Part shown: piece by piece, positions 1,778 through 2,432 of the stretch | Layout: each line of letters begins with the position of its first letter | How positions within the stretch are numbered: the first letter of the stretch is position 1 | NCBI GenBank assembly: GCA_036630325.1 | Contig: CP142737.1 | Span: forward strand, 496,001-560,000 | DNA length: 64,000 bases | Direction of reading: 5' to 3' | DNA from: Vairimorpha necatrix | Taxonomy: Eukaryota | The notes under the pieces: generated by a model | Database searches by the model: none | The model's input: the letters and a program-made list of their open reading frames with translations, nothing else | What the model was told of the DNA's origin: nothing | Program-made: the position numbers and the translations under genes

Positions 1778-1847
1778 ACCCTTACAAGAGAGCGTCCACG
1801 TCGCGGAGGGTGGGACCGATGTTTTTTTTAACTAGGTGCAAATTTCT
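1778..1847 (+). ncRNA. HDV-like ribozyme fold, copy 1 (P1 slightly degenerate)
   Basis: P1 ACCCUU/GAGGGU, P2 AGAGA/UUUCU, P3 GCG/CGC, L3 UCCACGU, GG for P1.1, P4 hairpin, J4/2 C-AAA. Confidence 0.7.
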
Positions 1848-1848
1848 A

Positions 1849-1917
1849 ACCCTCCATAAGAGAGCGTCCACGTCGCGGAGGGTGGGACCGATGTTTTTTA
1901 ACTAGGTGCAGATCTCT
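1849..1917 (+). ncRNA. HDV-like (CPEB3-type) ribozyme fold, copy 2
   Basis: P1 ACCCUCC(1849-55)/GGAGGGU(1877-83); P2 AGAGA(1859-63)/UCUCU(1913-17); P3 GCG/CGC around L3 UCCACGU; GG(1884-85) can pair with L3 CC; P4 ACC..GUU/AAC..GGU; putative catalytic C1909 followed by AGA. Confidence 0.82.
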
Positions 1918-2349
1918 AAGTCTTACCAACCTTCGGCTGCTGGTTGGTAAGTAGGGTCAGCTATACTCTAGGGGTGGGAGACCCATTGCTGGTGAGAAGG
2001 ACACCGTTAACTTTCGAGTAATTCTTCATATTTTTAACCTGGGAGAGGTTGGGCATGATACTGAAGCTGTATTGTTCCGCTGAACTGAGTCGTGTTCTTA
2101 AATGGTGTATTGAACCAGGCGTTGTGTTTTCGTCAGGTCCGCGAAATATGTAGTCAGAGATGACTAAGGATCTGTTACCTACGGGAACAAATTTTTCTCC
2201 TACAAGCGAGGCCGTTGAGGTATGCTGGCGTGTAATCGCAATTATTGATGTTTTTCTGGTTGGTGGAGTTTTTGGTGGCTTGGTGGCTTTTCTTCGTTTT
2301 GCTGATTCTGTCTTTTTTACAATAAACAATTTTATTTTTTTTTTATTTT
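1849..2349 (+). mobile_element. Non-autonomous SIDE/SINE-like retroelement: ribozyme + ~120-nt structured head + LINE-A-type 3' UTR + T-rich tail
   Basis: 2037-2349 is homologous to the 3' UTRs at 5229-5554 and 14590-15047; flanked by AGGTGCAAATTTCTA at 1834-1848 and 2350-2364. Confidence 0.75.
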
Positions 2350-2363
2350 AGGTGCAAATTTCT

Positions 2364-2432
2364 ACCCTCCATAAGAGAGCGTCCACGTCGCGGAGGGTGG
2401 GACCGATGTTTTTTAACTAGGTGCAGATCTCT
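2364..2432 (+). ncRNA. HDV-like ribozyme fold, copy 3
   Basis: Same sequence as copy 2; putative catalytic C2424. Confidence 0.82.

What the first reader, a model, noticed from the sequence alone, without database searches (positions are those of the whole stretch)
1778..2432. Three tandem HDV/CPEB3-like ribozyme folds immediately downstream of the LSU rRNA
Seen: the ~70-bp repeat is a complete nested double pseudoknot. For copy 2 it reads ACCCUCC-AUA-AGAGA-GCG-UCCACGU-CGC-GGAGGGU-GG-[P4]-G-C-AGA-UCUCU. Known: this is the HDV-like topology, and the P3/L3 string differs by one base from the mammalian CPEB3 ribozyme (GCG UUCACGU CGC). The P2 3' strand varies UCUCU/UUUCU and keeps pairing through G-U. 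Predicted cleavage is 5' of 1778, 1849 and 2364. Caveat: the first P1 pair is A-U rather than the usual G-U, and P4 is weak. I know of no HDV-like ribozyme described from microsporidia.
Basis: partly seen in the sequence, partly recalled or inferred. Interest (0 to 1): 0.92.

Follow-up and report, generated by a model that had tools for sequence, protein, structure and literature searches.

The report
Ribozyme-tipped retroelements behind the rRNA gene
Three copies of a 70-base RNA fold that looks like a self-cutting HDV-type ribozyme sit just past a microsporidian-type large-subunit rRNA gene, at the heads of small non-coding retroelements that borrow the tail of a LINE; insect R2 elements use the same trick, and here it appears in a new group of organisms.

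Summary
Units at 1778-1847, 1849-1917 and 2364-2432 (+) each draw as a full HDV-like nested double pseudoknot. The P3/L3 13-mer differs by one base from the Rfam CPEB3 consensus.

The units are the 5' heads of about 500-nt non-coding retroelements. Each element is ribozyme, then a 113-nt linker, then the roughly 320-nt 3' UTR of an APE-type LINE present elsewhere in the window. They lie head to tail behind the LSU gene, separated by an exact 16-nt direct repeat.

Full-length copies begin exactly at the predicted cleavage site. Contigs from three other public runs show three different 5' junctions at one flank position, 1781/1782.

The best reading is an R2/SIDE-like design. [quoted passage not shown] Confidence is 0.62.

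Catalysis is untested. Rfam gives 14.5 bits against a threshold of 35. The first P1 pair is A-U. I found no diverged homologues and no RNA data.

This is a new member of a known kind. I found no paper reporting it for microsporidia. Interest is moderate.

The parts
1..1738 (+). 3' two-thirds of a compact large-subunit rRNA gene. The 3' end is placed at 1722 (eukaryotic model) or 1738 (archaeal model).
   Evidence: Rfam LSU_rRNA_eukarya 983 bits, model positions 1079-3401. It ends at 1722 when the sequence is cut at 1800. The archaeal model ends at 1738.
1739..1782 (+). Short 3' flank of the LSU gene. Its last bases, ACCCU (1778-1782), serve as the 5' strand of P1 of ribozyme copy 1. The insertion junction lies after 1781/1782.
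   Evidence: Contigs of X1, X2 and X4 all share the flank up to 1780-1785 and then differ. Positions 1745-1781 show no listed differences in X1 or X2, while 1713-1744 carries 8 listed differences in the two together. X4's contig covers only 1736-1785 and shows none.
1778..1847 (+). HDV-like fold, copy 1. P1 is imperfect (5 Watson-Crick pairs, 1 G-U, 1 mismatch) and P2 has one G-U. Predicted cut is 5' of A1778.
   Evidence: Pair table. Own covariance model scores 87.2 bits.
1833..1848 (+). 16-nt direct repeat TAGGTGCAAATTTCTA, first copy. It is the 3' end of ribozyme copy 1 and is read as a target-site duplication.
   Evidence: Three exact copies, at 1833, 2349 and 2864.
1849..2348 (+). Non-autonomous element E2, 500 nt. 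It comprises the ribozyme (1849-1917, candidate catalytic C1909), a linker (1919-2031) and a LINE-type 3' UTR with AATAAA and a T-rich tail (2032-2348).
   Evidence: The UTR part matches the 3' UTRs behind two LINE ORFs (5221-5550, 14578-14871) at 84-88%.
2349..2364 (+). 16-nt direct repeat, second copy. Its last A doubles as the first base of E3.
2364..2863 (+). Non-autonomous element E3, 99% identical to E2. The ribozyme is at 2364-2432, with candidate catalytic C2424.
2864..2879 (+). 16-nt direct repeat, third copy.
2880..3195 (+). A copy that holds only the LINE-type 3' UTR. It is either a 5'-truncated insertion or the rear half of a short ribozyme-plus-UTR element split by E2/E3.
   Evidence: 94% identical to 2032-2344.
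3196..5556 (+). 5'-truncated LINE copy. The RT ORF runs to 5139 and the 3' UTR ends at about 5556. It is followed by a further 71-nt LINE fragment (5557-5627).
   Evidence: Pfam RVT_1 4.6e-39. 82% amino-acid identity to the LINE at 12907-14502. UTR match.
10262..15060 (+). More complete copy of the partner LINE: ORF1-like frame, APE endonuclease, RT, and the same 3' UTR. No ribozyme at its 5' end.
   Evidence: Pfam Exo_endo_phos and RVT_1. UTR at 14578-14871. 5' end read. No match to the covariance model.
45191..45644 (+). Dispersed copy of the non-autonomous element, 5'-truncated. It starts inside P4 of the ribozyme and is 91% identical to 1890-2343. A further partial UTR copy follows at 45681-45869.
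   Evidence: Covariance model gives 24.8 bits for the 3' third only.

Best explanation
The 70-nt units are HDV-like self-cleaving ribozymes. They form the 5' heads of a short non-coding retroelement that depends on a LINE (SIDE- or SINE-like). The element is ribozyme, then a 113-nt linker, then the 3' UTR of an APE-type LINE of the same genome.

Copies have inserted at one position about 40-55 nt past the LSU rRNA 3' end. Further copies inserted into one another, giving a head-to-tail array separated by a 16-nt target-site duplication.

Proposed mechanism:
1. RNA polymerase I reads through the LSU gene into the array (inferred).
2. Each ribozyme folds and cuts at the base of P1, 5' of 1778, 1849 and 2364. 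This leaves a 2',3'-cyclic phosphate upstream and a 5'-OH on the element RNA (inferred from the fold, not shown).
3. The LINE's endonuclease and reverse transcriptase recognise the shared 3' UTR and copy the RNA in trans by target-primed reverse transcription. This is inferred from the shared UTR, the repeats, the 5' truncations and the dispersed copy.

In copy 1 the first five bases of P1 come from the rDNA flank, as in most R2 elements.
For: Shown by the sequence:
- All helices and joining regions of the HDV-like topology are present, including CC/GG for P1.1 and a C in J4/2.
- The nested part (P1, P3, P4) is the minimum-free-energy fold of copies 2 and 3.
- Rfam's CPEB3 model aligns P1, P3 and L3 in register, at 14.5 bits. 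This is the only family with E up to 10 in 96 nt, E = 0.11.

Rarity: as set out in the observation check.

Retroelement context:
- The 3' two-thirds of the unit is the 3' UTR found behind two LINE ORFs. A UTR motif occurs at 7 sites in the window.
- A 5'-truncated copy lies 43 kb away, not next to rDNA.
- Three exact 16-nt repeats bracket E2 and E3. The element defined by those repeats therefore begins at 1849 and 2364/2365, which is the cleavage site predicted from the fold alone.
- X1's contig reads flank ACCCT and then ACCCTCC.... X2 has joints into 1850 and 2366.
- There are three 5' junction types at flank position 1781/1782: the window and X4, X1, and X2. Fixed site with varied 5' junctions is the pattern of site-directed non-LTR insertion.

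Variation keeps the fold:
- Differences between copy 1 and copy 2 fall in J1/2, the P4 loop, J4/2, the top of P1, and one G-C to G-U change in P2.
- One X2 variant of P4 has 4 changes, all at positions I draw as unpaired (loose end at 1813).

Precedent:
- R2 ribozymes have a P1 of 6-7 bp, a P2 of at least 5 bp, a variable P4, and cleavage often in upstream rDNA (PMC3774820, sections read).
- R2/R1 hybrid SIDEs are a ribozyme joined to the 3' end of an APE-type element. They sit in tandem arrays separated by a 14-bp duplication (PMC3414825, abstract and section 7).
Against: - No cleavage data and no RNA run.
- The Rfam score is far below the gathering threshold. No other HDV-like family matched.
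- The first P1 pair is A-U, not the usual G-U.
- Folding energy equals that of shuffles.
- The descriptor thresholds were set after seeing the sequence.
- All copies are near-identical, so there is no true compensatory change in P1, P2 or P3.
- No diverged homologue was found.
- The three LINE 5' ends readable in the window lack any such fold, so where the ribozyme came from is unknown.
- The downstream copy of a duplication for the flank site was not found.
- The contig evidence comes from assemblies. X4's contig is 151 nt at depth 2.3 and could be chimeric.
Confidence: 0.62

Rival explanations
1. The fold is a coincidence or is no longer catalytic. The 70-nt unit is simply the 5' module of a repeated retroelement or spacer repeat, for example a protein-binding or promoter piece, and no RNA cutting takes place.
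For: Loose HDV-like topologies are common by chance. Folding energy is not exceptional. The Rfam score is 14.5 against 35. There is A-U at the cleavage site. No independent covariation is available.
Against: The combination of a GC-rich P1, an all-GC P3, a GC P1.1 and a full P2 was not reached in 80 random 64-kb sequences, nor in any of 36 chance core matches. The element's 5' ends coincide with the predicted cut. The invariant 37-nt core spans exactly the active-site strands.
Confidence: 0.2
2. The ribozyme is a resident part of the rDNA 3' external transcribed spacer and is used by the host. It would cut the primary transcript about 40-55 nt past the LSU 3' end, to start 3' trimming or help polymerase I termination. 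The retroelement would then have merely picked up a copy by read-through.
For: - Copy 1 lies at the flank and uses flank bases for P1.
- In X1 the contig that joins LSU to the ribozyme has the same depth, 53.1, as the LSU itself and shows no branch. This hints that most units carry it.
- The 16-nt repeat that separates copies is the 3' end of copy 1, as a native target would be.
- The last roughly 30 nt of the LSU and flank resemble the repeat plus the ribozyme's 5' part. The score is 28.8 against 17.3 +/- 3.3, and 1 of 500 shuffles reaches it.
Against: Three related organisms show three different sequences right after flank position 1781/1782. That fits insertions, not a fixed spacer. One X2 contig has only the LINE UTR there, with no ribozyme. 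Contigs cannot show absence of uninserted units.
Confidence: 0.12
3. The tandem units work like retrozymes. Cuts at 1849 and 2364 would release a 515-nt RNA with a 5'-OH and a cyclic phosphate. A host RNA ligase would circularise it, and the circle would be the transposition or replication intermediate.
For: Two ribozymes lie in direct repeat exactly one unit apart. This geometry yields unit-length RNA.
Against: The tandem pair is 99% identical and is explained by one recent duplication. X1 and X4 show single copies at the flank. No RNA data are available. The LINE-type UTR and the 5' truncations point to linear target-primed reverse transcription.
Confidence: 0.04

Closest known systems
R2/R1 hybrid SIDEs and R2 SIDEs of Drosophila (Eickbush & Eickbush 2012, PMC3414825; abstract and section 7 read)
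   Same: [quoted passage not shown] For the hybrids that partner is the APE-type R1. The elements lie in rDNA, in tandem arrays interspersed with the autonomous element and separated by a target-site duplication, 14 bp there and 16 nt here. They show 5' junction variation.
   Different: Here the site is behind the LSU gene, not inside it. The host is a microsporidian-type genome. No R2-like donor of the ribozyme is visible. The partner LINE is also dispersed outside rDNA. Cleavage is untested.
R2 5' ribozyme (Eickbush, Burke & Eickbush 2013, PMC3774820; abstract and sections 12, 16, 18, 19 read)
   Same: An HDV-like fold that frees the element from an rRNA co-transcript. In many lineages P1 is formed with upstream rDNA bases, so the cut falls upstream of the junction. 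P1 is 6-7 bp, P2 at least 5 bp, and P4 is variable.
   Different: R2 encodes its own protein with a restriction-like endonuclease and inserts at one site in 28S. Here the partner has an APE endonuclease. Its RT is slightly nearer to L1 ORF2p than to R2 among solved structures.
L1Tc/NARTc of Trypanosoma cruzi (PMC3185411, passages read; PMC3383444, search listing only)
   Same: An HDV-like ribozyme in the first ~77 nt of a LINE and of its non-autonomous partner. It releases the element from longer co-transcripts.
   Different: There the autonomous LINE carries the ribozyme. Here the three readable LINE 5' ends do not.
Mammalian CPEB3 ribozyme (Rfam RF00622)
   Same: The P3-L3-P3' 13-mer differs at one base from the model consensus printed. 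The spacing between P1 and P3 is similar.
   Different: CPEB3 is a single-copy intronic ribozyme of mammals. P1, P2 and P4 are unrelated in sequence, and the score is 14.5 bits against a gathering score of 35. The R2 paper argues that such active-site likeness arises by convergence.

Membership tests
HDV-like self-cleaving ribozymes (structural class) | Nested double pseudoknot: P1, P2, P3 and P4, with P1' directly after P3', plus P1.1 between L3 and J1/4 | tested here: met
   Pair table for all three copies. P1, P3 and P4 are the minimum-free-energy fold of copies 2 and 3. Copy 1 has one mismatch at the top of P1.
HDV-like self-cleaving ribozymes (structural class) | Conserved active-site bases: a C in J4/2, and C and G in L3 | tested here: met
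   J4/2 is GCAGA or GCAAA, and L3 is UCCACGU. The conserved L3 C and G and the catalytic C are as described in PMC3774820. The figure with the exact positions is not held.
HDV-like self-cleaving ribozymes (structural class) | G-U wobble as the first pair of P1 at the cleavage site | tested here: not met
   The first pair is A-U in all three copies. I could not establish how far active natural members tolerate this. The supplementary structure figures of the R2 paper were not available.
HDV-like self-cleaving ribozymes (structural class) | Site-specific self-cleavage at the 5' base of P1, dependent on the J4/2 cytosine and a divalent metal | not testable with these tools
   Indirect support only: full-length element copies begin at the predicted site. 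No RNA run holds the stretch.
CPEB3 ribozyme family (Rfam RF00622) | Score at or above the family's gathering threshold of 35 bits | tested here: not met
   14.5 bits, with E = 1.8 in 1.6 kb and 0.11 in 96 nt.
Other Rfam HDV-like families | Any match with E up to 10 | tested here: not met
   CPEB3 was the only ribozyme family listed.
Non-autonomous, LINE-dependent retroelement (SIDE/SINE-like) | 3' end shared with an autonomous non-LTR element of the same genome | tested here: met
   2032-2344 matches the 3' UTRs behind two LINE ORFs at 84-88%. A UTR motif is at 7 sites.
Non-autonomous, LINE-dependent retroelement (SIDE/SINE-like) | No coding capacity of its own | tested here: met
   There is no + strand ORF of 80 aa or more in 1849-2348. 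The 122-aa frame on the minus strand is not kept in 4 of the 4 other UTR copies, whose longest frames are 47-77 aa, and it has no Pfam match.
Non-autonomous, LINE-dependent retroelement (SIDE/SINE-like) | Signs of target-primed reverse transcription: flanking direct repeats, 5' truncations, copies at other loci | tested here: met
   The 16-nt repeat occurs three times. A truncated copy lies at 45191. X2 shows many joints from the tail to internal positions. The flank-site duplication itself was not found.
R2 clade of non-LTR retrotransposons | Restriction-like endonuclease C-terminal to the RT, and insertion at the R2 site inside the LSU gene | tested here: not met
   The partner LINE has an N-terminal APE domain. 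The R2 target region of the LSU, near 862, is uninterrupted. The insertions lie past the gene.

The most novel reading that the evidence does not exclude
The ribozyme is fixed behind every rRNA gene of this parasite and has been taken over by the host. On this reading a self-cleaving RNA makes the first cut in the 3' external transcribed spacer, about 40-55 nt past the LSU end, in place of a protein endonuclease. It would thereby couple rRNA 3'-end formation, and perhaps polymerase I termination, to a former retroelement part. The unbranched X1 contig from LSU into the ribozyme at LSU depth and the flank-derived P1 strand do not exclude this.
Probability: 0.1. Interest if true: 0.85.

Novelty: new member of a known kind. 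Interest (0 to 1): 0.5.

Why it matters
If the RNA cuts itself, this would be the first HDV-like ribozyme reported from microsporidia. I found no paper that reports one.

It would also be an independent example, outside animals and trypanosomes, of a retroelement that rides on rRNA transcription and uses a ribozyme to free its 5' end.

The site differs from R1 and R2. It lies just past the LSU gene, so the host rRNA is not interrupted. That is a gentler way to exploit polymerase I.

The element is small and its parts are well defined (ribozyme, linker, LINE tail). This makes it a handy system to study how an APE-type LINE recognises its 3' UTR in a reduced eukaryote. It also gives a testable candidate for ribozyme-assisted processing of the rRNA 3' end.

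Tried and rejected
- **Whole genome.** None is held.
- **RNA evidence.** No RNA holder is listed among 11 runs, 7 of which are holders. All four runs laid were contigs, so no molecule ends could be read (table 6: none).
- **Homologues for covariation.**
  - Two scans of metagenome contigs found nothing: the ribozyme core plus the start of P4, and the LINE-UTR motif.
  - A looser core pattern gave 34 prokaryote and 2 viral loci. These are chance matches, since none of the 36 has a full P1 and a full P2.
  - Three attempts failed because the search machine was busy.
- **Covariance model.** My own model, run over the whole window with filters off, found only the three copies and the truncated relic at 45174-45219. 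The six other rows have E of 2.5 or more.
- **Rfam.** No family other than CPEB3 matched. A scan of 1640-1800 gave only weak, irrelevant rows.
- **LSU 3' end.** It could not be fixed. The models stop at 1722 or 1738, and the 5' end of the gene that would pair with it lies outside the window.
- **Folding energy.** It does not discriminate for the ribozymes (z = -0.08 to -0.30), the linker (z = -1.0) or the UTR (z = +1.9).
- **Minus-strand ORF 1961-2329.** Rejected. It has no Pfam match and is not kept in the other UTR copies.
- **tRNA-like head.** No tRNA gene is in the window.
- **A ribozyme at the LINE's own 5' end.** Not seen at 10262, 28341 or about 47000.
- **Second copy of the flank target.** Not found.
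- **ORF1-like frames.** No Pfam family at E up to 0.01. One row, Cry1Ac_dom-VII at E = 0.034, is below its cut-off.
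Full report
**What is there**

The window opens inside a compact large-subunit rRNA gene. Rfam's eukaryotic LSU model scores 983 bits over model positions 1079-3401. When the sequence is cut at 1800 the model ends at 1722 and loses only 2.9 bits. The archaeal model ends at 1738. The gene therefore ends at about 1722-1738, and the extension to 1948 is not reliable.

The short rRNA fits a microsporidian. So does the best named relative of the neighbouring reverse transcriptase: a LINE-1-like protein of Nosema granulosis, at 44% identity, among 160 hits. 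The rest of the window is crowded with transposable elements.

**The observation**

The three units lie at 1778-1847, 1849-1917 and 2364-2432 on the + strand. The pair table shows the following for copies 2 and 3, which are identical:
- P1 is ACCCUCC/GGAGGGU, 7 Watson-Crick pairs.
- J1/2 is AUA.
- P2 is AGAGA/UCUCU.
- P3 is GCG/CGC and L3 is UCCACGU.
- P1' abuts P3'.
- The two Gs after P1' can pair with the CC of L3 (P1.1).
- P4 is ACC/GGU plus GUU/AAC around a U-loop.
- J4/2 is GCAGA.

Copy 1 has ACCCUUA in P1 (one G-U and one mismatch at the top), a shorter J1/2, two more Us in the P4 loop, GCAAA in J4/2, and UUUCU in P2' (one G-U).

The nested part (P1, P3, P4) is the minimum-free-energy fold of copies 2 and 3.

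Rfam's CPEB3 model aligns P1, P3 and L3 in register. Its consensus for P3-L3-P3' differs from the window at one base. The score is only 14.5 bits against a gathering score of 35. No other ribozyme family appears, even when only 96 nt are searched.

**Is it more than chance?**

For:
- The 13-mer core occurs three times against 0.11 expected.
- A strict descriptor hits only copies 2 and 3 in the window. It requires at least 5 G-C pairs in a 7-bp P1, an all-G-C P3, a G-C P1.1, a 5-bp P2 and a C in J4/2. It hits nothing in 80 random 64-kb sequences of two compositions. Its thresholds were set after seeing the sequence.
- With any standard pair allowed, the topology is common: 82-189 hits per random 64 kb. 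The candidate's hydrogen-bond score of 46 still exceeds the maximum of 42 seen in 80 random sequences.
- As a control for the core itself, I used 36 chance matches of the core pattern in prokaryote and viral contigs. None combines a full P1 with a full P2. One has 7 P1 pairs, three of them G-U, and one has 5 P2 pairs.

Against:
- Folding energies are no better than in shuffles.
- The looser descriptor lists 9 other A/T-rich rows in the window.
- The three copies are duplicates of one another.

**Context, which changes the reading**

The 515-nt period is not a spacer repeat of unknown kind.
- Positions 2032-2344 recur behind the stop codons of two LINE ORFs, at 5221-5550 and 14578-14871, at 84-88% identity. 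They also recur as a UTR-only copy at 2880-3192.
- A conserved UTR motif is found at 7 sites.
- The LINE has an APE endonuclease and an RT. Its two RT copies share 82% of residues. Among solved structures it is slightly nearer to L1 ORF2p than to R2.

The unit is therefore ribozyme (70 nt), then a 113-nt linker, then the LINE 3' UTR with AATAAA and a T-rich tail. It has no ORF of its own.

A 5'-truncated copy that starts inside P4 lies at 45191-45644, far from the rDNA. The unit has therefore moved.

An exact 16-nt repeat, TAGGTGCAAATTTCTA, stands at 1833, 2349 and 2864. It brackets E2 (1849-2348) and E3 (2364-2863). The simplest history is one insertion with a 16-nt target-site duplication, followed by a tandem duplication of element plus repeat. 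The units are 99% identical.

The element boundary defined by the repeats coincides with the cleavage site predicted from the fold. That is what is expected if the RNA's 5' end is made by the ribozyme.

**Evidence from other public runs (contigs only)**

- In X1, a 429-nt contig at the depth of the LSU (53.1) runs from the LSU flank ...GGTACCCT straight into ACCCTCCATAAG... and on into the linker.
- In X4, a 151-nt contig has the window's copy-1 junction (ACCCT, then TAC, then AAGAGAG...) followed by the E-type ribozyme 3' part and linker.
- In X2, a contig goes from ...GGTACCC through two extra bases into the LINE UTR.
- There are thus three different 5' junctions at one flank position. That is the pattern of repeated insertion at a fixed site with variable 5' ends.
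- X2 also shows many joints from the T-rich tail to internal positions, which indicates head-to-tail arrays of truncated copies. It has joints into 1850 and 2366.
- Neither X1 nor X2 shows a listed difference within 1745-1781, whereas 1713-1744 carries 8 listed differences in the two together. X4's contig covers only 1736-1785, with no differences.
- No listed differences fall in the ribozyme cores.
- One X2 variant of P4 differs at four positions, all of which I draw as unpaired.
- Limits: these are assemblies, they cannot show absence, and X4's contig is thin.

**Mechanism**

The design matches what is known for R2 and its derivatives.
- R2 RNA is cut out of the 28S co-transcript by an HDV-like ribozyme. 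Often P1 is formed with upstream rDNA, so the cut falls upstream of the junction. P1 is 6-7 bp, P2 at least 5 bp, and P4 is variable (PMC3774820; abstract and sections 12, 16, 18, 19 read).
- Drosophila SIDEs join such a ribozyme to the 3' end of R2, or of the APE-type R1. The hybrids sit in tandem arrays with R1, separated by a 14-bp duplication, and they self-cleave in vitro (PMC3414825; abstract and section 7).
- L1Tc and NARTc carry an HDV-like ribozyme in their first 77 nt (PMC3185411, passages).
- A review states that such ribozymes free promoter-less elements from co-transcripts (PMC6765202, passages).

I therefore propose three steps:
1. Polymerase I reads through from the LSU gene.
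2. The ribozymes cut 5' of 1778, 1849 and 2364.
3. The LINE copies the element in trans through the shared UTR.

Steps 1 and 2 are inferred. The retrotransposition signs (shared tail, repeats, truncations, dispersed copy) are shown.

**What does not fit or stays open**

- The first P1 pair is A-U.
- The LINE 5' ends readable in the window carry no ribozyme.
- The flank-site duplication was not found downstream.
- The last roughly 30 nt of the LSU and flank resemble the 16-nt repeat plus the ribozyme's 5' part. Either rDNA sequence was recruited into the ribozyme or an older, decayed copy lies there.
- A host role for the cut, about 40-55 nt past the LSU end, cannot be excluded.

**Literature**

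The library holds no paper with 'HDV-like ribozyme' and 'microsporidia'. For 'self-cleaving ribozyme' with 'microsporidia', the 2 papers returned are a mite genome paper and the Rfam 13.0 paper; I saw their listings only. 'Ribozyme, Nosema, retrotransposon' gave 2 listings; I read passages of the rDNA/TE review, which lists only MITEs in Nosema bombycis rDNA, and did not open the Lichtheimia genome paper. The 4 papers with 'HDV-like' and 'external transcribed spacer' are the R2 and SIDE papers, the review and a paper on a bacterial small RNA; I read none of them for an ETS ribozyme. Subscription journals and supplementary files were not searchable. The supplementary structure figures of the R2 paper might show how often the first pair departs from G-U.

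**Verdict**

It is most likely a real HDV-like ribozyme at the head of a LINE-dependent non-autonomous retroelement parked behind the rRNA gene. That is a known strategy in a new lineage. The decisive cleavage test remains to be done.

Noticed in passing
window 1729-1757 versus 1833-1867: The last bases of the LSU and its flank (TAGGTG...ATAAGAGAGCGT) resemble the 16-nt repeat plus the 5' third of the ribozyme, including a 12-nt identity. The local score is 28.8 against 17.3 +/- 3.3, and 1 of 500 shuffles reaches it. Either rDNA sequence was recruited into the ribozyme or an older, decayed copy lies here.
   Followed up: partly
window 2346-2352, 2861-2867; X2 joints 2344/2347 to 2418: The T-rich tail is repeatedly joined to the same base, TAGGTGC..., on the 3' side of P4. 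This happens with both the AAATTTCTA and the AGATCTCTA versions. It may be a target-site duplication or a preferred stop of reverse transcription at the folded ribozyme. It is not resolved.
   Followed up: partly
window 10262 and 28341: Two LINE copies both begin with GATCCGAAAAT directly after the terminal repeat of two different DNA transposons. A third 5' region near 47000 differs upstream. The LINE's true 5' end is unclear.
   Followed up: no
window 401-600: A stretch of 16-23% G+C lies inside the LSU gene. It may be an A/T-rich expansion segment or a small insertion. A review lists MITE insertions in Nosema bombycis rRNA genes (PMC10946416, passage).
   Followed up: no
window 6000-64000: The window is almost wholly mobile DNA. 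It holds IS1595/Merlin-like DDE transposases (27337-28230, 30183-30977), Ty3-like protease, RNase H and integrase frames (18278-19495, 22178-24217, 52921-53739, 7214-8029), and further LINE pieces (28847-32314, 49577-50362).
   Followed up: partly
window 14872-14999: The 3' UTR of the LINE at 10262-15060 carries an extra segment of about 130 nt that is absent from the other UTR copies. The element ends in a short A-run after GACACATC. A similar TTTGACAC plus A-run precedes the truncated copy at 45191.
   Followed up: no
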